Shown here: positions 40,150 through 55,319 of the stretch, in pieces | How the letters are laid out: each line of letters opens with the position of its first letter | How positions within the stretch are numbered: position 1 is the stretch's first letter | Assembly (NCBI GenBank): GCA_046598345.1 | Contig: JBKJIT010000001.1 | Coordinates: forward strand, 108,251 to 172,250 | Length of the DNA stretch: 64,000 bases | Source of the DNA: Minisyncoccia bacterium | Lineage (GTDB): Bacteria; Patescibacteriota; Minisyncoccia; Phycocordibacterales; UBA918 | Reading direction: 5' to 3' | Translations under genes and position numbers: made by a program | Notes under the pieces: model-generated | Database searches by the model: none | The model's input: the letters and a program-made list of their open reading frames with translations, nothing else | What the model was told of the DNA's origin: nothing

Positions 40150-40159
40150 AAGCCATATT

Positions 40160-41962
40160 CTACACTAACTCATACTCATGCATGAGTATTGCAAGGGAGA
40201 GATAGAAATGTAGTGCCTTACCGGGCCATTTTTCATCACGTTCGACAACCTGTTTGATTTTCTTCCAGTCAATAATTTCATTTTTGTGCTCCACTGCACT
40301 CAATATATCTAAGAAATGTTCTTTGTAGGTATCGTCGTACCACGCTTTTACAGGAGCACGCCAGCCGGTTTTTTCTTTCCTTTTAGAAATATACTGTGGA
40401 AGTTTTTGGTCATATATTTCACGTAGAAATATTTTATTTGAATCTGCGGAAATATACTGCTTCGATGAGATGTGTGTATCCATGTATGTTCGAAGGGGAG
40501 TGTAGGCAAGTGGACAGCGCATTTCCATCGACTGGCTCATATACAGTTTGTCTGAGCGTATAAAATTTTCTGACGCGAGCCAAAAGAAACGATCGAGAAG
40601 CATTGCTCGATATACGTCATCCGTTTTTTTGCTATAGATTGGCAAAAGCAGGTCTGTCGTTTCTTTAAGGTATTTCCGTACATTTGATTTTGTATTTTTC
40701 GTTGAAAAAGTTGAAGGTAGACCTCGAAAGTGTAAGAAAATATCCGAGATTTCACTGTAATCTGTATCATCATTATTACGAACACTTTTTATTACGTTTA
40801 CTCCGTATGATGTAAGCAGTCTTTTGTAGTTCTCAACCCTTTGTATGAGTCTGTAGTGAGGATATCCTCCAAACAGCTCGTCCCCACCGTCTCCGGAGAG
40901 TACAACGCGTAATCCTTGGCCATGTATTCCCTCAATGCATGCTGTCTGATAATAAATAGGAACAGAAATGTTATAGTTGGGCTCCTCAATTGCCTTGTAT
41001 GCGTTTATAAAGTTTCTTAGATATGACTCTTTCGTGATCTGAATGGGAGTAAATTCCTGATTAAAATCTTTAGCTAATTTCTCTGCAAGAAATGCATCAG
41101 CGTTATGAGATTCATCCCCGCCTTCAAATGTGGTACTGAAGGCATGTATGGTTCGCCCAGCTCGAACACTTTCATAGAAAATGAGTGAAGAGTCCAGGCC
41201 ACCACTTAGATTTATAGAAATTTCACGCTTACTCTGAAGATGGTCTACTATTGTTTGTGATATAGCCTCTCCTGGACTGAGACGGTCGTACTCGGATTCA
41301 CCGCTCGAAATAAACAATTCAGACGAAAGAAGGGATGTGTTCATGTCGAAAGTCATGACTTCAGACGGGTGTAGTTTACGAACATCAGAAATAAACGTTC
41401 TATTTCCTGGGACGTAACCGATACTTGTAGCAACTTCAATGGCTAAAAGATCAAGATCTCGCTTAATAAAGGGAAATTTTAGTATTGCCTTTAATTCCGA
41501 AGCAAAAACAAACTTCCCATTTACGAAGGCATAGTACAAGTTTTTTTGACCTGACTGATCACGGTAAAGACGTAGAACCTTTTCAGCCTTATTGTACAGG
41601 GCAATCGCAAACATTCCGTGAATATGCCTAGCAAAATCCCATCCATGCTTCTTTATAAGTCTAAAGAGGAGTAGCGTATCGACGGTCGTTGCAACCCCGG
41701 TAACTCCTAGATCACGTTGGATAGCTGCAGTGTTGTAAAGTTGTCCATTAAATGCGAGTACCCATGGACTCTCTTCATTCATTACAGGTTGAATAGACTC
41801 ACGAATGTCACCACGGATTGCTAGGAGGAGATGACTAATGAGGACATTCTGATCTTCAAAAGTTCCTATGTAGTCTGGTCCTCGATGATGTTGCGTTTCG
41901 CGGGCAGCATTAAAATCCCTTATTTCTAGCCCCCCTTTAGTAGCGCCGATGATGCCGCACAT
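40160..41962 (-). CDS. asparagine synthase (glutamine-hydrolysing) family amidotransferase, second paralog
   Basis: MCGIIG N-terminal nucleophile. SGGLDSS PP-loop. 600 aa. Confidence 0.85.
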   Translation of the reverse strand: MCGIIGATKGGLEIRDFNAARETQHHRGPDYIGTFEDQNVLISHLLLAIRGDIRESIQPVMNEESPWVLAFNGQLYNTAAIQRDLGVTGVATTVDTLLLFRLIKKHGWDFARHIHGMFAIALYNKAEKVLRLYRDQSGQKNLYYAFVNGKFVFASELKAILKFPFIKRDLDLLAIEVATSIGYVPGNRTFISDVRKLHPSEVMTFDMNTSLLSSELFISSGESEYDRLSPGEAISQTIVDHLQSKREISINLSGGLDSSLIFYESVRAGRTIHAFSTTFEGGDESHNADAFLAEKLAKDFNQEFTPIQITKESYLRNFINAYKAIEEPNYNISVPIYYQTACIEGIHGQGLRVVLSGDGGDELFGGYPHYRLIQRVENYKRLLTSYGVNVIKSVRNNDDTDYSEISDIFLHFRGLPSTFSTKNTKSNVRKYLKETTDLLLPIYSKKTDDVYRAMLLDRFFWLASENFIRSDKLYMSQSMEMRCPLAYTPLRTYMDTHISSKQYISADSNKIFLREIYDQKLPQYISKRKEKTGWRAPVKAWYDDTYKEHFLDILSAVEHKNEIIDWKKIKQVVERDEKWPGKALHFYLSLAILMHEYELV

Positions 41963-42015
41963 ATTTCATGTATTATATATTAAACTTTCTAAAAGGAGGT
42001 TTGGTTAAAGAAAAT

Positions 42016-42975
42016 ATGGATATTGATGCATCTGCTAGGTCAAGGAAGGTTATACGTGAAGCGATTAATTCCCTCAAGGAATTTCAGAATCTCGATGAGA
42101 GATTTTGGAACGAGTTGTGTTCCCGTGTTCAGAATCGCAAGGGTAAGCTTGTGCTTACGGGAGTGGGGAAGTCAGGTTACATCGCTATGAAAGTTGCTGC
42201 CACACTCACAAGTCTTGGAAATTTTGCGACGTTTATACATCCTGTTGAAGCAATGCATGGAGATTCCGGTGGGGTAACTGAGGGGGATACGGTAATTGCT
42301 TTCTCGTATTCTGGAAACACAAAAGAACTGATTCAGTTTATGCGTCACATCAAGGAAAGAATGGAAGTGTCTTTGATTGGTGTTACAGGTGCGAGGGATT
42401 CACAACTCGGCAAACTTTCAGATATGGTGATCCTTATTACAATTCAGGAAGAGGGTAGTCCGTATAACCTTGCTCCTATGGCATCCACCACAGCAATGCT
42501 TGTTGCCGGGGATGCACTTGCAGCGGGTCTAACTTCTCCACAGACTTTCACAAAAAATGATTTCGCTCGTTATCACCCAAGTGGTACACTCGGCTTTTCA
42601 CTCACCTCAGTGAAAGAAAGAATGTTACCTCATACTCCTGACGATATGGTTGGTGAAGATACTGAACTGCAAGAAGTGTTACTCCATATGAGCAACATTG
42701 GAAAGGGGATAATTGGGGTCATTTCCCCGAATGGCGCACTTACGGGAGCAATAACCGATGGTGACATACGGAGATTCCTATGCACAAATATTTCAATCGA
42801 AGGTGCACATGCAAAAGATGCAATGAATGTGACGCCAAAGTATGTTCAGCATAACCACACACTTAAAGATGCACTTGAGATGATGGAATCTTTTAAGATC
42901 ACAAATGTCTTTGTTATCAACGAGGAAAGCATACCAATTGGCATCCTTCACATGCATGATATTTTAAGCTCATGA
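42016..42975 (+). CDS. kpsF: arabinose-5-phosphate isomerase (KpsF/GutQ family: SIS + tandem CBS)
   Basis: RBS AAAAGGAGG. SIS domain LVLTGVGKSGYIAMKVAATLTSLG. Two C-terminal CBS-like repeats. Confidence 0.75.
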   Translation: MDIDASARSRKVIREAINSLKEFQNLDERFWNELCSRVQNRKGKLVLTGVGKSGYIAMKVAATLTSLGNFATFIHPVEAMHGDSGGVTEGDTVIAFSYSGNTKELIQFMRHIKERMEVSLIGVTGARDSQLGKLSDMVILITIQEEGSPYNLAPMASTTAMLVAGDALAAGLTSPQTFTKNDFARYHPSGTLGFSLTSVKERMLPHTPDDMVGEDTELQEVLLHMSNIGKGIIGVISPNGALTGAITDGDIRRFLCTNISIEGAHAKDAMNVTPKYVQHNHTLKDALEMMESFKITNVFVINEESIPIGILHMHDILSS

Positions 42976-44441
42976 GAGAAGAGATAGATTTTAGTTACGC
43001 CCTCGAATTTTATAATCGATTGGAAGCTGTCCACATGGACAATCTCCCCCTCACGAAATATTTTGAATGTGAAGGGTCTGACTATTGGCAATTTTACAAA
43101 CAGAGGATTTTTGAAGAAATTAAGACTTTTAGTCGAACAAAGCACATAGTGCGACCAAGGGCGAATCGTTTTAGTAAGACGGTAGATTTTTGCGTGTATG
43201 TCGGGGTCGTTCTCTCAACTGTGTTTTCTTTAATGCGTAAAAGAAAGGCGCTAGTGTATGCAATTGATAAAGTAGACCCAGTGCACAAGAGTGATTTTAG
43301 GCTTTCTACCGTGTATGCATTTCTTAAGAGAGCACAGATATCTTATCTAGAAATCTTCCATACCGTGATAGGGGGTGCGACCATCAAGCATTTCTTTCAG
43401 CGAAGGCGAATTGTTACCTACCTCGAAGCAGCCGATCGTCTCTATCCCATAGCAGTATGGCTCAAGCTCCATAAGCCTCTCGAGCTGGCTGTAGTTACAA
43501 ATATAGCCCTAGAAAATTTTAGTGAAAGAGAAAGAGAATTCGCCATTACTCTCATACAAAAATATCTACGTCAAATCGATATTTCTCGTTTTAAAATTAT
43601 GTTTTTTTCCTTTCTTATGCGAAAAAGCAAATGCAAAATATTTCTTGCAATTGACGATGCTCGTTATTATTACGAACTCTTAAGAGCGGCAAAACTTGCC
43701 AAGGTTCCAAGCTATGCCTTCCAGCATGGACACTTTACGAAATACCATGTTGGATGGCTTAGATCTAATAATCAGTATGGCGAGTCGACCTATCCAGATC
43801 ATTTTTTAGTTTCGAGTGAATATTGGAAACAGGAACTAACTAGGTTGGGTGGGATTATGCCATCACATACTATTCTTGTCTCTGGAGACAAGACGCCTAC
43901 ACCAGACACTGCGTTTAGGGACATGCGTGAGGAAAGTAAGATACATATTCTTATCCCTTACGAAACAGCGTGCCCAAAGCATGAAGTTGCAGTGTATATA
44001 CGCAGCTTTCTGAGTATAAAAAATGTTCATGTGATATTTAAGCTTCGCCCAGATATGTCTACAGCTGAACAATTGAAGGAGTACGGCCTACAAGAATTAA
44101 AGGACTCACGGTTTGAGACCGCGGTAGATATTGGGGAATGTATAGAAAGAGTAGATATAGTTGCTGGAGTCTATTCAACATTTCTATATGACATGATTTT
44201 ATATAAGAAGCGAGTTGTTATCCTTGACACCTCATCTGATTATGGTGAGGGCATGTACGAAAACGGCTTGGCGGATCTTTTGAAGCGAGGGCGTGATCTT
44301 GAGACTTTTATATGGCAAATTAAAAAATTGCCGGACTCACTAATTGTGGAAAGAAAAACAAAATTATTAGCTAATGGAATTACACTGGAACAGACATTGA
44401 AAGATATAGTTGAAAAACATATTCATGACCGATTACTTTAA
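42972..44441 (+). CDS. hypothetical protein, possibly a capsule-synthesis (KpsS/KpsC-like) or TagF-like glycosyl/phosphotransferase
   Basis: 489 aa with no clear motif. Placed by synteny between kpsF and a kdsB-like gene. A QHGHF motif is present. Confidence 0.35.
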   Translation: MREEIDFSYALEFYNRLEAVHMDNLPLTKYFECEGSDYWQFYKQRIFEEIKTFSRTKHIVRPRANRFSKTVDFCVYVGVVLSTVFSLMRKRKALVYAIDKVDPVHKSDFRLSTVYAFLKRAQISYLEIFHTVIGGATIKHFFQRRRIVTYLEAADRLYPIAVWLKLHKPLELAVVTNIALENFSEREREFAITLIQKYLRQIDISRFKIMFFSFLMRKSKCKIFLAIDDARYYYELLRAAKLAKVPSYAFQHGHFTKYHVGWLRSNNQYGESTYPDHFLVSSEYWKQELTRLGGIMPSHTILVSGDKTPTPDTAFRDMREESKIHILIPYETACPKHEVAVYIRSFLSIKNVHVIFKLRPDMSTAEQLKEYGLQELKDSRFETAVDIGECIERVDIVAGVYSTFLYDMILYKKRVVILDTSSDYGEGMYENGLADLLKRGRDLETFIWQIKKLPDSLIVERKTKLLANGITLEQTLKDIVEKHIHDRLL

Positions 44442-44558
44442 GGTAAGTCCTGTAAAAGATGTTTTCGACATTTTGTTTTCGTTATTTTTTCTAGATTGTT
44501 TTGATCGCGTGAGAAACCTTGCTCTGGAGACCAAATTGCTTTAACTAATCAGAGTAAT

Positions 44559-45818
44559 TTACTTAGGACGATACATTTTGAACAAAATATAGAGCATAAA
44601 ACAATGCACAATATAGAAAATTAGAAGGGAGAAGACAGCGCCCCATATACCATATATAGGTACTAAGATAATGAGCGGTATAATCCGAATCACTGGTTTT
44701 GTAATGTTGAGTATGTACAATTCTTTTTTACTTCCGAGTGAGGTTAGTGCTTGTGTATAAAGGGTAAGAGGAATAGTGAAGAGTGTAAGAGAAAGTACTT
44801 GGGAATATCTCACTGCTTCTTGATATTCAGGAAAAAAATGGATAAAGAGAAATTCAGCGAATGTAATATAAGAAAGAATAAGGACGATGCTAATAAGAAA
44901 AGTAATAAACATTTTATGTGGAAGCGCATCCCTCAGTTCTTCATAGGTGCGTGTACTAAATTTCGGCAATATAAGTGAACGAATGATCTTTGAAGTACCA
45001 TGAAGTTGCCGTATCGGAGCGAGAGCAATGGCATAGATAGCGAGAGAGGTTGCTCCTAGAAGCTGAAAAATAATGACTTTATCAATATATGTAGAAAAGT
45101 TAGAGAATGAATCCATGAGACTCAAGTGTTTTCCCAAAGAAAGAGATTTGTTGTCTACAAATGCATTTTTGTCGATCTTCCTGACCAAGAGAAAATAACG
45201 AACTGAAGAAATAATCATATTTGAAAGAAAGAGAGTGAGCACAGCATAAATGACATCTTCAGTGAGATAGGCAACCAGGATGACACTAGTTGTGATAGCA
45301 ATATTTTTGTATATGTTATCGTTAGCAATCTTAGTAAATTGTTTTTTGCCGTTAAAATATGATCCGTAGAGTGAGGATGCATATAAGAGAGGCGAGCAGA
45401 GCCCGATAATTAGGAGCGAGTATCCGAGAACATCATTATTCTTGTAAAGGTAGTATGATCCCCCCAGAAGTGTTAACAACGATACGGGAATGGTCCATTT
45501 AAGTTTAAGAAGGAAACCTTTTATTAGAGTACGCTCAGATCCACGGGCCACTGCTTGCGCTACTGAAATGTCCAATCCAGAGAGAGTAAATGCAGCAATC
45601 ATACTGGCGATTGAAAGAATATACGCATAAAATCCGTACTCAGCTGGATTAAAGATTCGTACCAGGCAAAGGGTAAGTACAAATCCAGAGATACCGGCAA
45701 AGATTTGACCAATAGTAAGTACCATAGTTCCTTTAGCCAAATACCGGACATCTGTCTTAAGGTAAGGCTGTAATCTACTTGCAAGACGATTAAGAATATA
45801 AATTGATCTTTTTTTCAT
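44559..45818 (-). CDS. Wzx-like oligosaccharide flippase (MOP/polysaccharide biosynthesis protein family)
   Basis: 419 aa, 12 to 14 TM. N-terminal LAKGTMVLTIGQIFAGISGF typical of Wzx/PST family. Confidence 0.7.
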   Translation of the reverse strand: MKKRSIYILNRLASRLQPYLKTDVRYLAKGTMVLTIGQIFAGISGFVLTLCLVRIFNPAEYGFYAYILSIASMIAAFTLSGLDISVAQAVARGSERTLIKGFLLKLKWTIPVSLLTLLGGSYYLYKNNDVLGYSLLIIGLCSPLLYASSLYGSYFNGKKQFTKIANDNIYKNIAITTSVILVAYLTEDVIYAVLTLFLSNMIISSVRYFLLVRKIDKNAFVDNKSLSLGKHLSLMDSFSNFSTYIDKVIIFQLLGATSLAIYAIALAPIRQLHGTSKIIRSLILPKFSTRTYEELRDALPHKMFITFLISIVLILSYITFAEFLFIHFFPEYQEAVRYSQVLSLTLFTIPLTLYTQALTSLGSKKELYILNITKPVIRIIPLIILVPIYGIWGAVFSLLIFYIVHCFMLYILFKMYRPK

Positions 45819-45908
45819 TGGTATATATAACGCTAGGTAGCTTCGCTTTGTTCTATATATTTAACCTTAAATATAGTATAGTTTTGAAGAAAAATATCAT
45901 ACATTAAC

Positions 45909-47015
45909 GTGGAACAAGAAAGAAAACTTAAAGTCTTATCAGTTTTTCGGTCGCATCTCCTTGAAAACCGCGGGACGCCACTTCGCGTTAAATCACTTAT
46001 TAGTCACTTTAGGGGGGATGTCGACCTAGAATGGCATACGTGCACCCTGGATAGGGAGAGTCCGCTCGGTTTGCCGCATATCTCAATAATGCATGATCAT
46101 TTATATGATATTCGGAAGATCGCTTCGTATGCCGAAAAAAACAATATCAATGTTTTGATCTTCCACAGTGTCGCTGCAGCATTCTATCTTCCTTTTTTAA
46201 AACTGCTAATGCCCCGGAAAAAATTTGTGCTTGAGATGCACGGGTTTCGTGAAGAGGAAAGTCTTCTCTATGGAAGTATTTCAAAATTTACGTATAATCG
46301 CGATCGTCTCTTTTATAGCGTGATCTACAGGCTCGCCAATCTCATTACTACGTGCAGCGAAACTGCAAGTCAACGAATGAGGAAATATAATAAGAATGTT
46401 GTAACCGTTTATGGTGGTTTTGATCCAGTTTTATTTAATTCACATGTTTCTTCCGGAAACTTTATACAAAGAAATGCCGAAGATATTATCGTTGGATATG
46501 CGGGCGATGGTCGGAAATGGCAAGGTCTACCTTTTCTATTGGATGCGTTTGATAAGCTAGTTCAACTACATCCGAAGTTTAAGCTAGCACTGCTTTTAAG
46601 TGAAAACCGTAAGATTCCTGAGCGACCATACATTCAAGTCTTAGGGGCACTACCACATGATATGGTAGCCAGGTTTACTGTTGATTGTGACATCTTAGTC
46701 ATCCCCCGTATTCATTCACCTGTAAATGAACTTGGGTATCCCTCTAAATTAATGGAATACATGGCGATGGGAAAACCTGTGGTAGGAAGTAGAACAAGTG
46801 ATATTCACAAAATAATTCGTTCAGGGGAAAATGGAGTTCTTTTTAATCCTGAAGATGTAGAAGGCTTCATTGAAGCAACAAGTAGTTTGACAGAGAAGGA
46901 AGTGCGTAAAACAATTGGGAAAAGAGCAGAAGAAACCGCCTTTGCCGGATTTACGTGGGAAATACAGGGTGCTCTTTTTAAAGATGCTATTTTTAAGATA
47001 GGAAGAAGATATTGA
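45909..47015 (+). CDS. glycosyltransferase family 4
   Basis: VGYAGDGRKWQG and GYPSKLMEYMAMGKPVVGSRTSDI. Confidence 0.75.
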   Translation: MEQERKLKVLSVFRSHLLENRGTPLRVKSLISHFRGDVDLEWHTCTLDRESPLGLPHISIMHDHLYDIRKIASYAEKNNINVLIFHSVAAAFYLPFLKLLMPRKKFVLEMHGFREEESLLYGSISKFTYNRDRLFYSVIYRLANLITTCSETASQRMRKYNKNVVTVYGGFDPVLFNSHVSSGNFIQRNAEDIIVGYAGDGRKWQGLPFLLDAFDKLVQLHPKFKLALLLSENRKIPERPYIQVLGALPHDMVARFTVDCDILVIPRIHSPVNELGYPSKLMEYMAMGKPVVGSRTSDIHKIIRSGENGVLFNPEDVEGFIEATSSLTEKEVRKTIGKRAEETAFAGFTWEIQGALFKDAIFKIGRRY

Positions 47016-47079
47016 TTTATTTCTATTTGTATTGTATAATATCTAGGTAAGTTCATTTCATCTTTAGAAAGGGGTTCAA

Positions 47080-47670
47080 ATGTCTGCTCAAAGACCGATG
47101 GAGCAAGTTGTTGATAGCGATTCAGTACAGTTGGTGGCAAACCAGAAATTTCACCACCTTGGCAAAAACGGGGTACCTTATTTTCGTTTGAGGGTGCAGA
47201 GGTTGCCGAATGGGGATGTGTATCCCATGATCTCCACACCGGATGCGGCAAGCGTGCTCCCCGTTGAATGTGACGCAGCGGGACTCATAGTTGGGGCTCA
47301 CTTCCTTTGTCAGGAAAGACCGGAGTCTGAAGGTGTGATTACCAAGGCGGTGGGTGGGTACTGCAACCTTGGTGAAACCCGGGAGGAAGCTGCAATTCGA
47401 ACACTTCGGGCTAAGATGGGGATTGTTACGGAAGTCAAAGATCTGATCCCCTGTGGTGAGGCATATGGCTATGGTGACCAATACAGATTTCCGGTCTCAT
47501 GCTATGTATCGAAGGCGTTCTTCGTTGATCAAGACGCGGTTTTAGGCTCGGGGTGTAAGCGTCGTTTCATGACGATTAAGGAGGTTGCGGACACCCATCG
47601 CAAGAATCGATTCTTCAGTGATGACACTGTGCACTTGATCGCTACGATCATGTTGCGAAATGCGATGTGA
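47080..47670 (+). CDS. NUDIX hydrolase
   Basis: Nudix box GGYCNLGETREEAAIRTLRAKMGI (Gx5Ex7REUxEExGU). Confidence 0.65.
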   Translation: MSAQRPMEQVVDSDSVQLVANQKFHHLGKNGVPYFRLRVQRLPNGDVYPMISTPDAASVLPVECDAAGLIVGAHFLCQERPESEGVITKAVGGYCNLGETREEAAIRTLRAKMGIVTEVKDLIPCGEAYGYGDQYRFPVSCYVSKAFFVDQDAVLGSGCKRRFMTIKEVADTHRKNRFFSDDTVHLIATIMLRNAM

Positions 47671-48853
47671 GATGCATACGAGTGGTAAATTGAATGGCCG
47701 GGGATCTCCCCGGTCTTTTTCTTATTCAGAATTAGCTTGCATATTCTTGCTGTGTGTGGAGAATGAATGGGTGTCAAAACGGTCATTTCTTGTTGTGTTG
47801 GGAGCGCGTCCGAATTTCGTAAAGGCAGCGCCCTTTTTTCGTCGTGCAAAAGAGTACCCAGAATTTGAATTTAAGCTGGTCCATACTGGACAACATTTTG
47901 ATGACAATATGTCTAAAATCTTTTTCGAGGAGATGCAAATCCCCAAACCGGATATCCATTTAGACATAAAGGGTGATTTTCACACAGAAAAAATAGGCAA
48001 AATGTTTACAGCTCTAAAAGAGGTGGTCCGCACTCACGGACAGGATGGTGTAATTGTTTTTGGAGACATTAACTCGACCCTCGCTGGGGCTGTTGCTGCT
48101 GCTACTGAACGAAAGCGGATCATTCATATAGAATCCGGTCTACGTAGCCACGACCGAAGAATGCCTGAGGAAATCAATAGAGCGATCGTTGATCACCTCA
48201 GTGACCTACTTTTTGTGACCGAAGAATCCGGGAAGGAGAATTTACTCAAGGAAGGTATATCTGAGGAAAGGATTCATGTTGTAGGAAACATTATGATTGA
48301 GAGTATTGAGCTTTTTAAAAACCATTTTCATAGTTCAAATGTGCACGAACAACTCTTAACCACTCCCCAAGATTATTATGTTGCCACTATACATCGTTCT
48401 GAAAATACTGATGATGTGCACATTTTAGAGAAGATTATGAATATTCTAGATGCACTTTCAAAAGAAAAGCCGATTGTTATGCCACTTCATCCAGGAACTC
48501 GTCAGAAATTACTGAATTTTGGACTTGAAAAAAAATTGCAAGGAATTAAAGTAATCGAACCATTGGGTTACATAGATTTTATGAAACTCGTTATCGATTC
48601 ATCCGGTGTAGTAACAGACTCGGGAGGTATTCAGGAAGAAACTTCTCATTTGGGCATTCCATGTAGTACGCTACGGGAGAACACCGAGCGCCCAATAACC
48701 GTATCTTTAGGATCTAATAAGTTGTTTAACATTGATGACATTTCTTTAGAGGCTCTCATTGCCCATTTGGGAAGGAAAGATTTTAAGTCGAATCATATTC
48801 CACTTTGGGATAAGGATGTCAGTAAAAGGATTTTAGATATTTTAAGAAAATGA
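47660..48853 (+). CDS. UDP-N-acetylglucosamine 2-epimerase (WecB/NeuC family); probable GTG start near 47771
   Basis: LGARPNFVK...HTGQHFD..MS..FF family signature. 397 aa in track. Confidence 0.8.
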   Translation: MRCEMHTSGKLNGRGSPRSFSYSELACIFLLCVENEWVSKRSFLVVLGARPNFVKAAPFFRRAKEYPEFEFKLVHTGQHFDDNMSKIFFEEMQIPKPDIHLDIKGDFHTEKIGKMFTALKEVVRTHGQDGVIVFGDINSTLAGAVAAATERKRIIHIESGLRSHDRRMPEEINRAIVDHLSDLLFVTEESGKENLLKEGISEERIHVVGNIMIESIELFKNHFHSSNVHEQLLTTPQDYYVATIHRSENTDDVHILEKIMNILDALSKEKPIVMPLHPGTRQKLLNFGLEKKLQGIKVIEPLGYIDFMKLVIDSSGVVTDSGGIQEETSHLGIPCSTLRENTERPITVSLGSNKLFNIDDISLEALIAHLGRKDFKSNHIPLWDKDVSKRILDILRK

Positions 48854-49602
48854 AACAAAAAAAAGTATTGGGAATTATACCAGCACGACTTAACTCAACA
48901 CGGCTTCCGCGCAAAATGCTGCAAGATATTTGTGGGAAGCCGATGATTCAGTGGACGTACGAGAGTGTAAAAAAGGCAAAAATTTTGGATGCTGTTGTTG
49001 TGGCAACTGACTCTATAGAAATCGCCGATGCGGTGAAAGCGGTTGGTGGTATGGTACTTATGACTTCTTCCAAACCCAAGAATGGGACAGAAAGGGTAGC
49101 TGAAGCTGCGCGACTATTTAACGGCTTTAAACCCGATATTGTTATCAACATCCAAGGAGATGAACCCATGATGCCTGTTTCTGCAATTACGAAAACGGTA
49201 GAACTACTGCTCGCAGATGGAAAAACAGTCATGTCTACAGTAGCCCGGCCATTTCCCAAAGGAGGTAACTTAGCGGAACCAGGGCAGGTAAAAGTAGTCC
49301 TTGATAAAGATAATTATGCGCTTTATTTCTCAAGGTCAAAGATTCCATATGAGAGAACGCCGTATGCCAAATTTTATAATCATATTGGAATTTATGGATA
49401 CCAGTATGAGTTTTTGCAAAAATTTGTAACCTTTAGGCAGACACCGTTAGAAAAAGCAGAACTTCTTGAGCAACTTCGTGCGCTTGAAAACGGATTCAAA
49501 ATCAAGGTGGGAATAGGAAAGTATGAAAGGCTTGAAGTAAATGAGCCGCATGAGTTAGAGGCTGTGCGTAAAATGATGGCAAGACGCTTGAAATCAAGGT
49601 AA
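48850..49602 (+). CDS. kdsB: 3-deoxy-manno-octulosonate cytidylyltransferase-like (CMP-Kdo synthetase family; CMP-sugar synthetase)
   Basis: IIPARLNSTRLPRKML and NIQGDEPMM. 250 aa, the expected KdsB length. Confidence 0.7.
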   Translation: MKQKKVLGIIPARLNSTRLPRKMLQDICGKPMIQWTYESVKKAKILDAVVVATDSIEIADAVKAVGGMVLMTSSKPKNGTERVAEAARLFNGFKPDIVINIQGDEPMMPVSAITKTVELLLADGKTVMSTVARPFPKGGNLAEPGQVKVVLDKDNYALYFSRSKIPYERTPYAKFYNHIGIYGYQYEFLQKFVTFRQTPLEKAELLEQLRALENGFKIKVGIGKYERLEVNEPHELEAVRKMMARRLKSR

Positions 49603-49674: not shown

Positions 49675-51321
49675 ATGCAGAATGAAGAGCAAAAAGAGGA
49701 TATTCTGAACCTTCCGCGCCTTAATGTTAAAGGTCGTCAACTTCACGATCTTGAGGTAATGCTCGTAGGTGGATTTTTCCCAGTTGAGGGCTTCATGGAT
49801 GAGGCAGACTACAATGCTGTCGTCGAGACTATGCACCTCGCAGATGGACAGATTTTTCCTATTCCTATTGTCCTCGACGTGCCACACGATAGCCCATATC
49901 ACGTAGGGGATCGAATCCTCCTCTGTGATCCGTTTGGAAATCCGCTTGCGATCATGAACGTGAGTTCGCGATTTACGCCAGATAAGCAAAACGAAGTACT
50001 AAAGGTCTATGGTACAGATGACCCAATGCATCCGGGTGTTCAGTATGTCCTCGATGAAATGCATGATACCTATATTGGTGGACCGGTAGCACATTTGGCA
50101 CTTCCAGTACGTCATGATTTTAAGCAGTGGAGACGGACACCGGCAGAACTCAAGGCACTTTTTAAAGAACGAGGTTGGGACAAGGTCGTTGGGTTCCAAA
50201 CACGTAACCCAATGCACCGCGCACATTTTGAGCTCGTGAAGCGTGCGTCAGAGACGGTTGGCGCACCAGTCCTCATTCATCCTGTAGTTGGTATGACGAA
50301 ACCGGGCGACATTGATTATGTCACTCGTGTGCGAACGTATAATGTTGTGCATTCAAAGTATGGAAAAGACTTTACAGAACTTTCGCTCTTACCGCTTGCA
50401 ATGCGAATGGCGGGACCGCGTGAGGCAGTGTGGCACTCGATCATTAGGCGAAACTACGGCTGCACGCACTTCATTGTGGGGCGCGATCATGCGGGGCCAG
50501 GAAAGGGAAGTGACGGCAAAGATTTTTACGGTCCGTATGAGGCCAGAGATCTTGCGCTTACTTGTGCGGACGAAGTAGGAATCACCATTGTGCCTTCGGA
50601 CGAACTCGCATATTCAAAGACACGCGATGCGTATGTTTCGACGAGTGAAGTAACTCCGGAGGACGAGATTGAGAATATTTCCGGCACTGAATTCCGACGC
50701 CGACTCTTTGCAGGAGAAGAAATTCCCGATTGGTTTTCATTTAAGGAAAGCATTGATATTTTACGCCAAAGTGTGAAGCGCGATACGCGCCCTGGAGTAG
50801 CTGTGTTTTTTACGGGTCTTTCATGTTCCGGAAAATCAACGCTTGCAAACCTTCTCCTTGCACGACTCCAGGAAATCCAAGACAGAGAGATTACACTCCT
50901 CGATGGCGATTTGATTCGGGCACACCTTTCAAAAGGACTTGGATTCTCAAAGGAGGATCGGGATGAAAATGTGAAGCGTGTCGGGTTTGTGGCGAGCGAA
51001 ATTGTGCGACACGGGGGTATTGTAATTTGCGCCCTTATTGCACCGTACAAGGATGCACGTCGCTACGTACGCAACCTGATCGAGCAGCACGGTGAATTCG
51101 TTGAAATTTTTGTCGAGACCTCGCTCGAAGAATGTGCTCGTCGCGATACAAAGGGTCTCTATGAAAAGGCGAAGCAGGGACTCATTAAAAATTTCACGGG
51201 CGTTGATGATCCGTATGAGATTCCTGAAAGCCCTGAACTTGTGGCCAAAACGGAGGAGGCGACTCCTGAGATGCTTGTCGAAGAAATCATTTCTAGCTTG
51301 AAAGACCGCAAGGTACTGTAA
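49675..51321 (+). CDS. bifunctional sulfate adenylyltransferase (Sat-type ATP sulfurylase) / adenylylsulfate kinase (CysC): PAPS synthase
   Basis: GFQTRNPMHRAHFEL and GRDHAG motifs of ATP sulfurylase. C-terminal APS kinase P-loop GLSCSGKSTLAN. Confidence 0.85.
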   Translation: MQNEEQKEDILNLPRLNVKGRQLHDLEVMLVGGFFPVEGFMDEADYNAVVETMHLADGQIFPIPIVLDVPHDSPYHVGDRILLCDPFGNPLAIMNVSSRFTPDKQNEVLKVYGTDDPMHPGVQYVLDEMHDTYIGGPVAHLALPVRHDFKQWRRTPAELKALFKERGWDKVVGFQTRNPMHRAHFELVKRASETVGAPVLIHPVVGMTKPGDIDYVTRVRTYNVVHSKYGKDFTELSLLPLAMRMAGPREAVWHSIIRRNYGCTHFIVGRDHAGPGKGSDGKDFYGPYEARDLALTCADEVGITIVPSDELAYSKTRDAYVSTSEVTPEDEIENISGTEFRRRLFAGEEIPDWFSFKESIDILRQSVKRDTRPGVAVFFTGLSCSGKSTLANLLLARLQEIQDREITLLDGDLIRAHLSKGLGFSKEDRDENVKRVGFVASEIVRHGGIVICALIAPYKDARRYVRNLIEQHGEFVEIFVETSLEECARRDTKGLYEKAKQGLIKNFTGVDDPYEIPESPELVAKTEEATPEMLVEEIISSLKDRKVL

Positions 51322-51608: not shown

Positions 51609-53843
51609 TTGCGCAAAGAGTTACTAACTTTTAATTTCACTCGGATGAAAGATATTGCAAAAGGAATAGTGTATTTGGGAGTTTTTGCCATCCCATTTAT
51701 TCCCCTCATTATTTCCAACACAATGTTTTTTCCCTTTATTACGGGAAAAAATTTCACCTTCCGCGTCATTGTTGAAATTATTTTTGCAGCATGGATACTA
51801 CTCGCTCTCTATGAACCTCTCTATAGGCCACGTTTTTCGTGGATAGTCGCTGGGTTTACATCGCTCCTCGTCGTAATGTTTTTTGCGAATCTTTTCGGGG
51901 CAAACCCGCTCCAGAGTTTTTGGAGCAATTTCGAACGTATGGAAGGGTATGTCACCTTGGTGCATATGTTCCTCTACTTTCTTGTGGCTGGGAGTGTACT
52001 TACTACTGATAAGCTTTGGAACCGTTTTTTCAACACAACACTTTTTGCAGCAGTACTCCTCTCGCTCTATGCATTTGCGCAGCTTTCTGGGAATATTGTT
52101 ATCAATCAGGGAGGATGGCGTCTCGATGGAACTCTGGGTAATTCAGCGTATATGGCAATCTATATGCTTTTCCACAGCTTCATAGCGCTCTTTATGCTTG
52201 TACGGACGCGTACTCGAGGACTTCAATACACGTATGGGGCGCTTTTAATTCTATTCATTTTTCTTCTCATACAGACAGCGACTCGCGGTTCAATAATCGG
52301 ATTTTTCGGGGGCCTCTTTGTGACAACGCTCTACATCACGCTATTTATCAAGGATCATCCACGAGTTCGTAAGGTAGCAATATCTTCACTCGTTGCTGTG
52401 GTTGCTCTTGTTGGACTCTTTGTTGCATTTAGGGACTCAGCACTTATTCAAAGCAACCCCTACCTCGGTCGAGTCGCGAACATAACGCTGAGTGAAGGAA
52501 ATGTACGTTTTAAAGTGTGGAATATGGCGATTGAAGGATTTAAGGAACGCCCAGTTCTTGGATGGGGACAGAGTAATTTCAACTACGTTTTCAATGAGCA
52601 CTATGATCCATCAATCTACTTTGCTGAATCATGGTATGACCGGGTGCACGATATTGCATTCGATTGGCTCATTGCAGGGGGTGTCTTAGGATTCATTGCG
52701 TACTTCTCGATTCTAGCTGCAGCACTCTACTACCTTTTCTTTAGACCACTCTTTAAGAAAGACGATGAGTCAATGACTGTGGTTGAGCGGGGTGTGCTCC
52801 TCGGTCTCCTTGCGGGATATGTCTTCCATAATATTTTCGTGTTCGACAACATCGTAAGTTATGTCTATTACGGAACCATCCTCGCATTTATTCATTCACG
52901 TGTTGCGTCGGCAATACCCAAGGTGGCAGCAGCAAAATTTGACACGCGTGTACTCGAACAGATTGCTACACCTGTTGTTGGGGTCGCACTCTTGTTTGTG
53001 ATCTACTTTGTGAATGCACCGGGTATTCGAGCTGCGAGTGACATTATTGATGCATTTTCAACACAGTCTCCAGACGCAGCCTTCCAACAGTTTGACGAAG
53101 CACTCTCGCGTAATTCATTTGGAAACCAGGAAATCCGGGAACAGCTCACGAGACAGGCACAAGCACTCATCCAGGATCCTAAAGCCGATGCAGCTCTTAA
53201 GGAAAAGGTGAAAGCACGTGTGGAAGAAGAGCTCATTAAGCAGATTGAGGAAAAGCCTAATGATGCACGTGTGCATGTATTCATTAGCTCCTTCTATCGA
53301 ATGACGGGGGATATTGATAAGGCAATCGAACAACTCGAAATAGCTCGTTCTCTTTCTCCACAAAAGCAGCAAATTATTTTTGAACAGGGGCTCGCGCATC
53401 TCCAGAAGGGTGAGAACGACATAGCACTCGCATACTTTAAAGAGGCGTATGATCTTGCACCTTCTTACTCGGAAGCCGCAGTATTCTATGCAGTTGCAGG
53501 ACTTTTCGCGGGGAAGCCAGAGATTATAGACGAAGTTCTTACCACCAAAGAGCTTAGAGATAGCTTCTCAGAAAATGATCTTGCCGTGCAAGCTGCGTAC
53601 AGCACGAAGCAATTTGATGTTCTCGAAAATATATTTAAGACTCGAATAGAACGGAAACCGGAAGATCCTCAGGCACGTACCAATCTTGCGTTTATCCTGA
53701 ATGAACAGGGTAAAACAACCGAGGCGATTGAAATTCTGAACCAAGCAGCGAAAGATATTCCGTCATTTGAAGGACAGTCACAGCAGTTTATTGCGAGTCT
53801 CCTTGCGGGAAACAGTCCAACGACGAGCCCTGTAGCACCGTAG
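51609..53843 (+). CDS. O-antigen ligase-domain (Wzy_C) membrane protein fused to C-terminal TPR repeats; putative O-oligosaccharyltransferase or polymerase
   Basis: About 12 TM N-terminal half with TATRGSIIGFFGGL (Wzy_C-like loop). The C-terminal 300 aa is soluble, helical and TPR-like. Confidence 0.65.
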   Translation: MRKELLTFNFTRMKDIAKGIVYLGVFAIPFIPLIISNTMFFPFITGKNFTFRVIVEIIFAAWILLALYEPLYRPRFSWIVAGFTSLLVVMFFANLFGANPLQSFWSNFERMEGYVTLVHMFLYFLVAGSVLTTDKLWNRFFNTTLFAAVLLSLYAFAQLSGNIVINQGGWRLDGTLGNSAYMAIYMLFHSFIALFMLVRTRTRGLQYTYGALLILFIFLLIQTATRGSIIGFFGGLFVTTLYITLFIKDHPRVRKVAISSLVAVVALVGLFVAFRDSALIQSNPYLGRVANITLSEGNVRFKVWNMAIEGFKERPVLGWGQSNFNYVFNEHYDPSIYFAESWYDRVHDIAFDWLIAGGVLGFIAYFSILAAALYYLFFRPLFKKDDESMTVVERGVLLGLLAGYVFHNIFVFDNIVSYVYYGTILAFIHSRVASAIPKVAAAKFDTRVLEQIATPVVGVALLFVIYFVNAPGIRAASDIIDAFSTQSPDAAFQQFDEALSRNSFGNQEIREQLTRQAQALIQDPKADAALKEKVKARVEEELIKQIEEKPNDARVHVFISSFYRMTGDIDKAIEQLEIARSLSPQKQQIIFEQGLAHLQKGENDIALAYFKEAYDLAPSYSEAAVFYAVAGLFAGKPEIIDEVLTTKELRDSFSENDLAVQAAYSTKQFDVLENIFKTRIERKPEDPQARTNLAFILNEQGKTTEAIEILNQAAKDIPSFEGQSQQFIASLLAGNSPTTSPVAP

Positions 53844-54190: not shown

Positions 54191-54230
54191 CCTGCCCCTA
54201 CTGGCCATATTGGCAGATGAGTTTTATTGT

Positions 54231-55319
54231 ATGCCTTCTACTGTAAGAGAAAAGGTCCCCTTGGCCCCGTACACCACGCTTGGGATTGGTGGGGTTGCAG
54301 AATATTTTGTAGACCTGGAACATATATCGTTGTTTACAGATGTTGCAGAGTGGGCACGTGAGAAGAAACTCCCTATAACAATTCTCGGGGGAGGATCGAA
54401 TGTACTTATAGCTGATGAAGGAATTCAAGGACTCGTGATACACATGAGGACTACGGGCGTCAGGGTTCTCCATGAGGATGAGGATACCGTAGTGATTGCC
54501 GCTGCTGCAGGAGAATCGTGGGATACACTAGTGAATTTCGCAGCGGAATCGGGATACTGGGGTCTAGAAAATCTCTCGGGTATTCCGGGAAGCGTCGGCG
54601 CAGCTCCCATTCAAAATATCAATGCGTATGGAATAAGTGTAGGGGACTCTGTGTCTCACGTGCAGGCAGTCAATCTACTGACCTTAGAGGAAGTGAGTTT
54701 TTCAAAAGAAGAGTGTGCGTTTCAGTATCGCGATAGTTTTTTCAAATCAGAGAAAGGACGTGAGTTTCTTATAACCACTGTGAATGTTGTATTGCAAAAA
54801 AGACGAGGCGCAGTACTCAAGTATCGGAGTTCGTCACAGAGCATCGAACGACTTCTTTCGGAAGAAGGGATAACCGACCCAACTCCTCGTGATATACGAA
54901 GGGGAATTCTCCATATGCGACGAAACATTGGCATGCTTCTTGGGATGTATCAATCCGCAGGGTCATTCTTTAAAAATGTTCTCCTAAGTCAAGAGGAGTT
55001 TACGCGGCTCGCTGAAATAGTTGCAGCGAAGTACGGAGAAAAATCTGGAATACTTTCTCCCTGGCACTGGGAAGTGGAAGGGGGGCTTTATAAAGTGTCT
55101 ACAGCGTTTCTCATGGAGTGCACTGCATACAACAAAACGGATTTTAAAGAAAAAAGCTTTAGGGGTGTGGTGGGTATTTCACCAGGTCATACACTCTCGC
55201 TCGTTAATCAGGGCAGCGCACACGCAGCAGATGTTCGTGCGTTTGCAAAAGAGATACAGGAGACTGTACATGCAACATTTAATATTCTTATTGAACCTGA
55301 AGTACTTTTTCTTCCCTAG
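54231..55319 (+). CDS. murB: UDP-N-acetylenolpyruvoylglucosamine reductase
   Basis: LAPYTTLGIGGVAEYF and ILGGGSNVLI FAD-binding motifs. C-terminal MurB domain. Confidence 0.8.
   Translation: MPSTVREKVPLAPYTTLGIGGVAEYFVDLEHISLFTDVAEWAREKKLPITILGGGSNVLIADEGIQGLVIHMRTTGVRVLHEDEDTVVIAAAAGESWDTLVNFAAESGYWGLENLSGIPGSVGAAPIQNINAYGISVGDSVSHVQAVNLLTLEEVSFSKEECAFQYRDSFFKSEKGREFLITTVNVVLQKRRGAVLKYRSSSQSIERLLSEEGITDPTPRDIRRGILHMRRNIGMLLGMYQSAGSFFKNVLLSQEEFTRLAEIVAAKYGEKSGILSPWHWEVEGGLYKVSTAFLMECTAYNKTDFKEKSFRGVVGISPGHTLSLVNQGSAHAADVRAFAKEIQETVHATFNILIEPEVLFLP

What the first reader, a model, noticed from the sequence alone, without database searches (positions are those of the whole stretch)
49675..51321. 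Fused Sat-type ATP sulfurylase + APS kinase (PAPS synthase) located inside the glycan cluster rather than in a cys operon
Single 548-aa ORF with QTRNPMHRAHFEL and GRDHAG sulfurylase motifs, then a CysC P-loop domain. It is flanked by kdsB-like and O-antigen-ligase-like genes, with no cysD/cysH/cysJ nearby. This genomic context argues it supplies PAPS to the sulfotransferase at 23436 rather than to sulfur assimilation.
Basis: partly seen in the sequence, partly recalled or inferred. Interest (0 to 1): 0.6.

Follow-up and report, generated by a model that had tools for sequence, protein, structure and literature searches.

The report
PAPS synthase in CPR glycan locus
This gene encodes an ordinary, intact two-step enzyme that makes the activated sulfate donor PAPS, and in this tiny-genome (CPR/Paceibacteria) bacterium and its relatives it always sits at one end of a cell-surface sugar-polymer locus whose other end carries a sulfotransferase, so it most likely serves to sulfate a surface glycan rather than to make cysteine.

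Summary
ORF 49675-51321 (+, 548 aa) is a PUA-like / ATP-sulfurylase / APS-kinase fusion. It passes the NCBIfam equivalog NF004040 (778.6 bits, cutoff 669) and matches Aquifex aeolicus SAT/APS kinase 2GKS over its full length.

All catalytic motifs of both domains are intact here and in 120 orthologues, so the kinase domain is not a fungal-type regulatory relic.

The context claim holds but needs refining. The gene belongs to a conserved right arm: PAPS synthase / Wzy_C-TPR / MurB / SecA / Obg / GatB. It has core-like GC (0.486). The adjacent low-GC island, which includes WecB and KdsB, is variable.

The sulfotransferase at 23436 lies in a conserved left arm. Coordinates from six genomes place it upstream of the PAPS synthase, on the same strand, 19.9-31.4 kb away. 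More distant CPR and some non-CPR genomes have sulfotransferases closer.

No cysH, cysD, cysJ, sulfite reductase, sulfate transporter or CysQ was found in the window. Genome-wide absence could not be tested.

Verdict: a dedicated PAPS supply for glycan sulfation, which is a known kind of arrangement. Published CPR surveys read sat/cysC as sulfate reduction, so this corrects that reading. Interest is moderate.

The parts
49675..51321 (+). Bifunctional ATP sulfurylase / APS kinase (PAPS synthase), 548 aa
   Evidence: ORF. Pfam domains. NF004040 778.6 bits against cutoff 669. 2GKS E 6e-171 over the full length. GC 0.486, like the core genes.
49681..50097 (+). PUA-like N-terminal domain (aa 3-141)
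   Evidence: PF14306, E 1.7e-41.
50125..50769 (+). ATP-sulfurylase catalytic domain (aa 151-365), with QTRNPMHRAH (50197-50235) and GRDHAG (50479-50496)
   Evidence: PF01747, E 2.1e-81. Motif residues are 97-100 % conserved in 120 orthologues.
50794..51246 (+). APS-kinase domain (aa 374-524), with P-loop GLSCSGKST (50815-50841) and LDGD
   Evidence: PF01583, E 4e-59. The P-loop and DGD motifs are intact as in Aquifex 2GKS, unlike the fungal regulatory domain 1I2D. The core residues G381, L382, S383, G386, K387, T389 and the DGD motif are invariant, and C384, S385 and S388 are 93-95 % conserved, in 120 orthologues.
23436..24278 (+). PAPS-dependent carbohydrate-type sulfotransferase, 280 aa, the likely consumer of the PAPS
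   Evidence: PF00685 and PF13469. PDB hits are bacterial ST 3RNL, heparan-sulfate 3-O-sulfotransferases and the NDST N-sulfotransferase domain. The 5'-PSB GAQKSxTSW, the KEIHFF Glu-x-His and the 3'-PB RNPxxRxxS are conserved in 120 orthologues. It shares a contig with the PAPS synthase in 6 genomes.
24263..25087 (+). Polysaccharide (N-)deacetylase whose start overlaps the sulfotransferase stop
   Evidence: PF01522, E 9e-21. The pairing with the ST is conserved in L086, L088, L091, L092 and L093, and the gene is truncated in L087.
12149..26907 (+). Conserved left arm of the glycan locus: epimerase, GT4, ATP-grasp, PHP, deacetylase (-), GT4 x2, epimerase, GT4 x2, sulfotransferase, deacetylase, AsnB-type amidotransferase
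   Evidence: Pfam. Collinear at 39-74 % identity for most genes (24-33 % for some GT4s) in L086, L087, L088 and L091, and also in L092 and L093. GC 0.45-0.51.
26938..49602 (.). Variable low-GC centre of the locus: GTs, methyltransferases, epimerases, second AsnB, KpsF, Wzx, WecB, KdsB
   Evidence: GC 0.37-0.44 for all but one ORF (47080-47670, 0.506). The content differs between relatives.
44559..45818 (-). Wzx-type flippase (Polysacc_synt)
   Evidence: PF01943, E 4e-19. A homologue lies upstream of the PAPS synthase in most CPR relatives.
47660..49602 (+). WecB (UDP-GlcNAc 2-epimerase) and KdsB-type CMP-sugar synthetase directly upstream; 73-nt gap to the PAPS synthase
   Evidence: TIGR00236 and TIGR00466. 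The same pair sits directly upstream of the PAPS synthase in L089 (KdsB 72 % identical) but not in most relatives.
51609..53843 (+). Wzy_C (O-antigen ligase/polymerase family) + C-terminal TPR membrane protein; the conserved downstream neighbour
   Evidence: PF04932 and TPR families. It is downstream of the PAPS synthase in 16 of the 18 CPR loci (the two exceptions are short contigs), directly in all but L008, and in L082, L084, L089 and L090. The gap is only 6-47 nt in several.
54210..55319 (+). MurB, the first gene of the conserved housekeeping run MurB / SecA / Obg / GatB
   Evidence: Pfam. Synteny.

Best explanation
The gene encodes a catalytically competent Aquifex-type bifunctional PAPS synthase. 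The N-terminal ATP-sulfurylase module converts sulfate + ATP to APS + PPi. The C-terminal APS-kinase module phosphorylates APS to PAPS. The organism is a Paceibacteria (Kaiserbacteria-like) CPR bacterium. There the gene is a core gene at the right-hand end of a large cell-envelope glycan locus, probably co-transcribed in many relatives with a Wzy_C-TPR ligase/polymerase and MurB. Its main role is to supply PAPS to the cytoplasmic carbohydrate-type sulfotransferase in the conserved left arm (23436-24278). That enzyme would sulfate a sugar of a lipid-linked glycan built by the neighbouring GT4 glycosyltransferases. The glycan would then be flipped by Wzx and ligated or polymerised by the Wzy_C-TPR protein. 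Shown: the domain architecture, the intact motifs, family membership, the conserved sulfotransferase...PAPS-synthase bracket, and the lack of reductive genes locally. Inferred: enzyme activity, the sulfotransferase as the consumer, the glycan as the acceptor, and the absence of assimilatory use.
For: Architecture and family. Catalytic motifs of both domains (HxxH, GRDHAG, P-loop, DGD, FTG lid) are essentially invariant in 120 orthologues of 71-83 % identity. The gene is as conserved as SecA and GatB (78-81 % identity, against 34-54 % for MurB and 59-74 % for Wzy_C-TPR) and has core-like GC. The order PAPS synthase / Wzy_C-TPR / MurB / SecA... holds in the CPR loci long enough to show it. The sulfotransferase has conserved PAPS-binding and catalytic motifs. 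It sits in a collinear left arm. It lies upstream on the same strand at 26.2 kb in the window and at 19.9, 24.5, 30.0, 31.0 and 31.4 kb in five other genomes. Matching contig lengths link left-arm genes and the PAPS synthase on 14 of about 23 PAPS-synthase contigs of 30 kb or more. Independent associations: sulfotransferases lie 3-7 kb away in distant CPR loci L016 and L017, adjacent in Krumholzibacteriota L025 and L026, and nearby in L031, L039 and L048. No cysH, cysD, cysJ, sir, transporter or CysQ is in the window, and none appeared among the 25 commonest of 72 Pfam families in 74 upstream ORFs of nine CPR loci. Parcubacteria lack amino-acid biosynthesis (PMC4508563), and cysH/aprA are reported in 4.95 % of CPR MAGs (PMC11608272).
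Against: The sulfotransferase is 20-31 kb from the PAPS synthase in the close relatives, so the two genes are not in one operon. The repeated co-location within one lineage is inherited synteny, not independent events. Only one recognisable sulfotransferase is in the window, and most relatives have none within 10 kb (2 of 9 loci). No sulfate importer or pAp phosphatase was found in the locus. The conserved PHP protein failed the bisphosphate-phosphatase test. The rest of the genome could not be searched for cysH, sir or cysK. The APS-kinase 'ISPY' serine (Ser109 in E. coli CysC) is alanine in 119 of 120 orthologues. From memory, this serine is dispensable in the Penicillium kinase, but that was not verified here.
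Confidence: 0.7

Rival explanations
1. Classical assimilation: the PAPS (or APS) is reduced to sulfite and sulfide for cysteine synthesis, and the glycan context is incidental synteny.
For: This is the default role of Sat/CysC, and it is how CPR sat/cysC genes are read in surveys ('involved in sulfate reduction... transformations to sulfite', PMC7906910). Non-CPR members of the family are not in cys operons either, so distance from cys genes does not exclude this role. The very high conservation fits a housekeeping role.
Against: No reductive gene is in the 64 kb or in the roughly 20 related loci. Parcubacteria generally lack amino-acid biosynthesis. cysH/aprA are reported in only 4.95 % of CPR MAGs. 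A conserved sulfotransferase is present in the same locus.
Confidence: 0.1
2. The PAPS is made for sulfation, but of something other than the locus glycan, such as a lipid, a protein (tyrosine or pilin sulfation) or a small molecule, through sulfotransferases encoded elsewhere. The sulfotransferase at 23436 would be only one consumer, or none.
For: The PAPS synthase is more conserved (78-81 %) than the sulfotransferase (57-72 %) and lies 20-31 kb from it. Bacterial PAPS-dependent sulfation of Nod factors, sulfolipids and RaxX is established knowledge.
Against: The sulfotransferase overlaps a GT4 gene upstream and a polysaccharide deacetylase downstream. Its nearest solved relatives are carbohydrate sulfotransferases. 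No other sulfotransferase was detected in the window.
Confidence: 0.12
3. The C-terminal kinase-like domain is regulatory, as in fungal ATP sulfurylases, so the enzyme makes only APS.
For: The 'IAPY' alanine is shared with the fungal regulatory domain (1I2D 'APIAPY'), where active kinases have serine.
Against: The Walker A GLSCSGKST and the LDGD motif are intact and conserved across the clade. The fungal domain has GYMNSGKDA and LLGD. TIGR00455 apsK scores 190 bits against a cutoff of 139.
Confidence: 0.04
4. The sulfurylase runs in reverse (APS + PPi to ATP + sulfate), or takes part in dissimilatory sulfur cycling.
For: Aquifex-type enzymes have been discussed in this sense (from memory). CPR surveys list sat under sulfur cycling.
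Against: No APS reductase or Dsr genes were seen. A fused active APS kinase pulls the reaction towards PAPS. CPR bacteria lack respiratory chains (general literature, titles).
Confidence: 0.02

Closest known systems
Aquifex aeolicus bifunctional SAT/APS kinase (PDB 2GKS; NCBIfam NF004040 / PRK05537)
   Same: The domain order is the same (PUA-like, ATP sulfurylase, C-terminal APS kinase). The alignment covers the full length at E 6e-171. The HxxH, GRDHAG, P-loop and DGD motifs are the same.
   Different: The host is a CPR bacterium. The gene is embedded in a conserved cell-envelope glycan locus. The 'VSPY' serine is alanine throughout the clade.
Fungal ATP sulfurylase with an allosteric APS-kinase-like domain (Penicillium chrysogenum, PDB 1I2D / 1M8P)
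   Same: The overall architecture is the same, and the match is strong (E 1e-152).
   Different: The fungal C-terminal domain has a degenerate P-loop (GYMNSGKDA) and LLGD, and is regulatory. The window protein keeps the catalytic motifs.
Metazoan PAPS synthases PAPSS1/2 (PDB 1X6V, 1XNJ)
   Same: Both activities are in one polypeptide that makes PAPS purely for sulfation. Both domains are homologous.
   Different: The domain order is reversed in animals (kinase N-terminal), which points to an independent fusion.
Dedicated bacterial PAPS-supply plus sulfotransferase systems: rhizobial NodPQ-NodH, Xanthomonas RaxPQ-RaxST, mycobacterial CysDNC-Stf0 (from established knowledge, not tested here)
   Same: The logic is the same: sulfate-activation genes linked to a sulfotransferase that decorates a secreted or surface molecule.
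   Different: Those systems use the heterodimeric GTPase-coupled CysD/CysN-type sulfurylase and coexist with an assimilatory pathway. Here the sulfurylase is Sat-type and fused, and it is probably the only sulfate-activating enzyme in an organism without assimilation.
Cyanobacterial sulfated exopolysaccharide clusters (synechan xss: Wzx/Wzy machinery + sulfotransferases; PMC13125312)
   Same: A Wzx/Wzy-type glycan assembly locus that contains PAPS-dependent sulfotransferases.
   Different: As described in that paper, the xss unit comprises regulators, Wzx/Wzy or ABC machinery and sulfotransferases, with no PAPS-forming enzyme named. The CPR locus carries its own PAPS synthase.

Membership tests
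NF004040 / PRK05537 bifunctional sulfate adenylyltransferase-adenylylsulfate kinase | Whole-protein score above the curated equivalog cutoff | tested here: met
   778.6 bits against a cutoff of 669, covering aa 3-545.
NF004040 / PRK05537 bifunctional sulfate adenylyltransferase-adenylylsulfate kinase | One polypeptide with PUA-like, ATP-sulfurylase and C-terminal APS-kinase domains in that order | tested here: met
   PF14306 at aa 3-141, PF01747 at 151-365, PF01583 at 374-524.
NF004040 / PRK05537 bifunctional sulfate adenylyltransferase-adenylylsulfate kinase | Sulfurylase active-site motifs QxRNPxHxxH and GRDHAG | tested here: met
   Present at aa 175-184 and 269-274. They are 97-100 % conserved in 120 orthologues.
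NF004040 / PRK05537 bifunctional sulfate adenylyltransferase-adenylylsulfate kinase | Catalytic (not regulatory) kinase domain: Walker A GxxxxGK[ST] and LDGD | tested here: met
   GLSCSGKST and LLDGD align with Aquifex GLPCAGKST and LLDGD. They are conserved in orthologues.
NF004040 / PRK05537 bifunctional sulfate adenylyltransferase-adenylylsulfate kinase | Formation of PAPS from sulfate and 2 ATP | not testable with these tools
   Needs an enzyme assay.
Fungal-type ATP sulfurylase with an allosteric kinase-like domain | Degenerate P-loop and loss of the DGD motif in the C-terminal domain | tested here: not met
   Both motifs are intact in the window protein. It is not filed here.
Dedicated PAPS-supply / sulfotransferase glycoconjugate-sulfation system (functional class) | A PAPS-forming enzyme and a PAPS-dependent sulfotransferase in one conserved locus | tested here: met
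   Six genomes have the sulfotransferase 19.9-31.4 kb upstream on the same strand. The spacing is closer in L016, L017, L025, L026 and L031.
Dedicated PAPS-supply / sulfotransferase glycoconjugate-sulfation system (functional class) | The sulfotransferase keeps the 5'-PSB lysine loop, the 3'-PB Arg/Ser and a catalytic base | tested here: met
   GAQKSATSW, RNPIDRAYS and KEIHFF align with heparan-sulfate 3-OST. They are conserved in 120 orthologues.
Dedicated PAPS-supply / sulfotransferase glycoconjugate-sulfation system (functional class) | Glycan assembly and export genes in the same locus | tested here: met
   At least 9 GT4 genes, Wzx, Wzy_C-TPR, epimerases and deacetylases.
Dedicated PAPS-supply / sulfotransferase glycoconjugate-sulfation system (functional class) | A sulfated product exists | not testable with these tools
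   Needs chemistry on cells or an enrichment culture.
Assimilatory sulfate-reduction (cys) gene cluster | PAPS/APS reductase (CysH) and sulfite reductase adjacent to, or in the genome with, the activating enzyme | tested here: not met
   None is in the 64-kb window. None is among the genes called around the PAPS synthase in L001, L082-L084, L089 and L090. The rest of the genome was not testable.
PHP-family 3',5'-nucleoside bisphosphate (pAp) phosphatase (NF041577), considered for ORF 15351-16154 | Score above the curated cutoff, or profile similarity to a solved pAp phosphatase such as Cv1693 (entry recalled from memory) | tested here: not met
   17.9 bits against a cutoff of 400. A 40-sequence profile hits only TM0559 (2ANU) at E 3e-6.

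The most novel reading that the evidence does not exclude
Kaiserbacteria-like Paceibacteria make a lineage-wide sulfated cell-surface glycan. The conserved, overlapping sulfotransferase-deacetylase gene pair acts like the animal heparan-sulfate N-deacetylase/N-sulfotransferase: it de-N-acetylates an amino sugar and then N-sulfates it, giving a heparan-like polyanion. The Wzy_C-TPR enzyme then attaches this polymer to the wall, pili or an S-layer for adhesion of the episymbiont to its host. On this reading the 'sat/cysC' genes scored as sulfate reduction in CPR metagenomics are surface-glycan genes.
Probability: 0.12. Interest if true: 0.7.

Novelty: new member of a known kind. Interest (0 to 1): 0.4.

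Why it matters
CPR/Patescibacteria are uncultivated episymbionts whose surface structures presumably mediate attachment to hosts, and almost nothing is known about their glycans. A core, highly conserved PAPS synthase paired with a conserved sulfotransferase predicts a sulfated surface polymer, which could be tested by 35S or 34S labelling or by glycan mass spectrometry on enrichments. It also matters for interpreting surveys. sat and cysC hits in CPR MAGs are currently counted as 'sulfate reduction' capacity (PMC7906910, PMC9698310), and in this lineage that reading is probably wrong. The enzyme and the logic (dedicated PAPS supply for sulfation) are both well known, so this is a refinement rather than a discovery of a new mechanism.

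Tried and rejected
1. I looked for further sulfotransferases, sulfate transporters, CysQ and CysH among the window ORFs without Pfam hits, at E up to 1. None was found.

2. I asked whether sulfotransferases are common within 10 kb upstream of the PAPS synthase in CPR relatives. Only 2 of 9 loci had one. The sulfotransferase turned out to lie 20-31 kb away in a conserved left arm.

3. As a control, I examined the neighbours of non-CPR family members. They are heterogeneous, with no cys operon, so 'not in a cys operon' is not discriminating.

4. I tested whether the conserved PHP protein (15351-16154) is the missing pAp phosphatase. This was not supported, although JGI labels orthologues 'TrpH'.

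5. Promoter and terminator scans of 44-55 kb gave counts no higher than shuffled sequence. They yielded only weak hints: a terminator-like hairpin at 51517-51534 and a promoter-like site at 51545-51574.

6. Rfam and tRNA scans found nothing near the gene.

7. Literature searches combining Parcubacteria, Patescibacteria or CPR with sulfotransferase or sulfated glycan found no relevant prior description.

9. A genome-wide search for cysH and sir was not possible.
Full report
**1. Observation**

The window holds one ATG-initiated ORF at 49675..51321 (+) of 548 aa. A GAGGA-type ribosome-binding site precedes it.

- Pfam finds PUA_2 (aa 3-141), ATP-sulfurylase (151-365) and APS_kinase (374-524).
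- The NCBIfam equivalog NF004040, 'bifunctional sulfate adenylyltransferase/adenylylsulfate kinase', scores 778.6 bits against a cutoff of 669.
- The flanking genes are as described. KdsB-type cytidylyltransferase lies at 48850-49602 and a Wzy_C + TPR membrane protein at 51609-53843.
- The ORF at 23436-24278 is a Sulfotransfer_1/3 protein.

**2. Is the enzyme intact?**

The best solved relative is the Aquifex aeolicus bifunctional SAT/APS kinase 2GKS, at E 6e-171 over the full length.

The residue-by-residue alignment shows that the kinase domain keeps Walker A (GLSCSGKST against Aquifex GLPCAGKST) and LLDGD. The non-catalytic regulatory domain of the Penicillium sulfurylase (1I2D) has GYMNSGKDA and LLGD instead.

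I aligned 120 orthologous clusters of 71-83 % identity. The HxxH, GRDHAG, mobile-loop, P-loop, DGD and FTG-lid residues are essentially invariant. Both half-reactions are therefore under purifying selection.

There is one lineage-specific oddity. The serine of 'ISPY' is Ser109 in E. coli CysC, where it is reported to be phosphorylated. It is alanine in 119 of 120 orthologues. From memory, that serine is dispensable in the Penicillium APS kinase, but I did not verify this.

**3. Organism and conservation**

Species-representative genomes with close relatives are titled Candidatus Kaiserbacteria or Paceibacterota. Some carry a generic 'Saccharibacteria' label. The window therefore comes from a CPR/Patescibacteria genome.

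The housekeeping genes in the window fit this: MurD, MurC, MurB, SecA, Obg and GatB.

Across these genomes the PAPS synthase is 78-81 % identical. That matches SecA (76-82 %) and GatB (73-87 %). It is far above MurB (34-54 %) and Wzy_C-TPR (59-74 %).

**4. Architecture of the region**

Synteny analysis shows a fixed right arm: PAPS synthase / Wzy_C-TPR / MurB / SecA / holin-like / DedA-like / Obg / GatB. It holds in the CPR relatives long enough to show it, down to 58 % PAPS-synthase identity. The gap between the PAPS synthase and Wzy_C-TPR is only 6-47 nt in several of them, against about 290 nt in the window.

Upstream of the PAPS synthase the gene content varies between genomes. It includes methyltransferases, NeuB, cytidylyltransferases and GTs.

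- WecB + KdsB adjacency recurs only in L089 (KdsB 72 % identical).
- WecB alone recurs in L082.

Composition agrees with this picture. The PAPS synthase has GC 0.486, like the core genes and the left arm (0.45-0.51). The genes from 26.9 to 49.6 kb have GC 0.37-0.44, including WecB at 0.398 and KdsB at 0.416.

So the gene is not cargo of the variable glycan island. It belongs to the conserved backbone that borders the island.

**5. The link to the sulfotransferase**

The sulfotransferase has more than 120 orthologous clusters at 57-72 % identity. Nine of them sit on contigs whose lengths equal those of PAPS-synthase-bearing contigs. The orthologue list for the neighbouring PHP protein adds five more such matches.

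Coordinates were verified for six genomes. In every case the sulfotransferase is upstream on the same strand.

| Genome / contig | Spacing, sulfotransferase to PAPS synthase |
|---|---|
| Window | 26.2 kb |
| JAWVHE010000111.1 | 19.9 kb |
| CAZBMV010000004.1 | 24.5 kb |
| CAZQIF010000002.1 | 30.0 kb |
| Ga0654431_0000091 | 31.0 kb |
| JAKFZB010000027.1 | 31.4 kb |

The sulfotransferase lies in a collinear left arm. Its order is epimerase, GT4, ATP-grasp, PHP, deacetylase (-), GT4s, sulfotransferase, deacetylase, AsnB-type amidotransferase.

Because these genomes are related, the six cases are inherited synteny rather than six independent events. Independent support comes from elsewhere:

- The more distant CPR loci L016 and L017 have sulfotransferases 6.4 and 3.2 kb from the gene.
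- The Krumholzibacteriota loci L025 and L026 have one immediately adjacent.
- L031, L039 and L048 also carry sulfotransferases nearby.

The sulfotransferase itself looks functional and carbohydrate-directed. Its nearest solved relatives are a bacterial sulfotransferase (3RNL), heparan-sulfate 3-O-sulfotransferases and the NDST N-sulfotransferase domain. The 5'-PSB loop (GAQKSATSW), the Glu-x-His (KEIHFF) and the 3'-PB (RNPIDRAYS) are conserved in its orthologues. Its reading frame overlaps a GT4 gene upstream and a polysaccharide deacetylase downstream.

**6. Assimilation?**

No CysH, CysD/N, CysJ/I, sulfate permease or CysQ was found in the window, even at lenient thresholds. None appears among the genes called around the PAPS synthase in relatives.

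Non-CPR members of the family are not in cys operons either.

The genome-wide test could not be run with the available tools. The argument therefore leans on the literature:

- Parcubacteria lack amino-acid biosynthetic pathways (PMC4508563).
- cysH/aprA were reported in only 4.95 % of 399 CPR MAGs (PMC11608272).

By contrast, CPR surveys read sat/cysC/cysN as 'sulfate reduction... transformations to sulfite' (PMC7906910; repeated in PMC9698310). I found no paper linking Patescibacteria to sulfotransferases or sulfated glycans.

**7. Mechanism proposed**

1. Sulfate + ATP gives APS (Sat module).
2. APS + ATP gives PAPS (CysC module).
3. PAPS is used in the cytoplasm by the left-arm sulfotransferase on a lipid-linked oligosaccharide assembled by the GT4 enzymes.
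4. Wzx flips the unit across the membrane.
5. The Wzy_C-TPR protein polymerises or ligates it onto an envelope acceptor. The tools did not establish whether this organism has a lipid A-core acceptor; if it lacks one, the acceptor must be something else.

Enzyme architecture, motif integrity and conserved co-location are shown. The flow of PAPS to this sulfotransferase, the acceptor and the lack of assimilation are inferred.

Two pieces are missing: a sulfate importer and a pAp phosphatase. I tested whether the conserved PHP protein could be the phosphatase. It scores 17.9 bits against the cutoff of 400 for NF041577, and a 40-sequence profile hits only TM0559 in the PDB. It was not supported.

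**8. Comparison with what is known, and verdict**

The enzyme is a bona fide member of NF004040 (Aquifex type). It is not the fungal regulatory type.

The system-level logic matches several known cases:

- the dedicated PAPS-supply/sulfotransferase pairs NodPQ-NodH, RaxPQ-RaxST and CysDNC-Stf0 (established knowledge);
- Wzx/Wzy loci with sulfotransferases such as cyanobacterial synechan (PMC13125312).

What is new is the host lineage, the conserved 'bracket' architecture around a hypervariable centre, and the correction of how these genes are read in CPR metagenomics. That makes it a new member of a known kind, of moderate interest (0.4).

The most novel reading still open is an NDST-like N-deacetylation/N-sulfation by the overlapping sulfotransferase-deacetylase pair, yielding a heparan-like surface polymer. 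I give it about 0.12 probability.

Noticed in passing
window 26938-49602, compared with 12149-26907 and 49675 onward: The glycan region is a conserved left arm and a conserved right arm around a compositionally distinct centre. The centre has GC 0.37-0.44, against 0.45-0.51 for the arms. Its gene content differs in every relative examined, the pattern expected of a recombining surface-glycan island.
   Followed up: yes
window 23436-25087; L086 10001-11634; L088 10001-11646; L091 10001-11642; L092 16928-18585; L093 16965-18632: The sulfotransferase and a polysaccharide deacetylase form a conserved gene pair, overlapping or only a few nt apart. The sulfotransferase's solved relatives include the heparan-sulfate N-deacetylase/N-sulfotransferase. 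This hints at N-deacetylation followed by N-sulfation. In L087 the deacetylase is truncated.
   Followed up: partly
window 15351-16154: A conserved 267-aa PHP-superfamily metallohydrolase sits in the left arm, with 56-73 % identical orthologues that JGI labels 'TrpH'. It was tested as a pAp phosphatase and not supported. Its substrate is unknown and its closest solved relative is TM0559 (2ANU).
   Followed up: yes
PAPS synthase aa 456 (window about 51040-51042): The 'ISPY' serine of APS kinases is alanine in 119 of 120 CPR orthologues, while every other catalytic motif is kept.
   Followed up: partly
window 28062-28814 (-) and 28781-29533 (-): Two overlapping 250-aa ORFs carry the N-terminal FAD/NAD-binding half and the C-terminal GLF-like half of a UDP-galactopyranose-mutase-like flavoenzyme. 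This is probably a frameshifted or split gene.
   Followed up: no
window 41968-42975, 42972-44441, 48850-49602; L009 148-2442: KpsF/KdsD (arabinose-5-P isomerase) and KdsB are present, but no KdsA or KdsC was seen. An unannotated 489-aa ORF (42972-44441) has weak homologues in L005, L006 and L009, and lies directly next to KdsB in L009. It may be the matching ulosonic-acid transferase.
   Followed up: partly
window 9957-11966; L092 1-1032; L093 1-1706: A TrwB/VirD4/HerA-like ATPase with a long proline-rich C-terminal tail lies upstream of the left arm. In L092 and L093 its homologue sits further upstream, separated from the arm by other genes. That is an unusual neighbour for a glycan locus.
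   Followed up: no
L086 9695-9967; L093 16659-16937; L087 8017-8940: Small GIY-YIG ORFs (90-92 aa) are inserted directly upstream of the sulfotransferase in two relatives. A Fic-domain gene is inserted one gene upstream in a third (L087), ahead of the GT4 that precedes the sulfotransferase. These look like selfish or mobile insertions inside the conserved arm.
   Followed up: no
window 47080-47670; L089 3755-5140; L082 7993-8613: A 196-aa ORF with only a marginal NUDIX hit has GC 0.506 inside the low-GC island. It is conserved next to the GT4 and WecB genes in relatives, and is tandemly duplicated in L089.
   Followed up: no
window 51322-51608: The spacer between the PAPS synthase and Wzy_C-TPR is about 290 nt here, against 6-47 nt in L089, L084, L003, L011 and L032. 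It holds a terminator-like hairpin (51517-51534) followed by a promoter-like site (51545-51574). The right-arm operon may be split in this genome.
   Followed up: partly
L015 (JBLHGD010000048.1), and the titles of L002-L006 and L008: A 7-kb contig binned as Azotimanducaceae carries a PAPS synthase 63 % identical to the window's, closer than any other non-CPR hit, so it may be mis-binned. Several MAGs titled 'Saccharibacteria' share the gene order seen in the loci titled Paceibacterota or Kaiserbacteria.
   Followed up: no
window 1886-1960: tRNA-Ile (GAT) is the only structured RNA detected in the 64 kb.
   Followed up: yes
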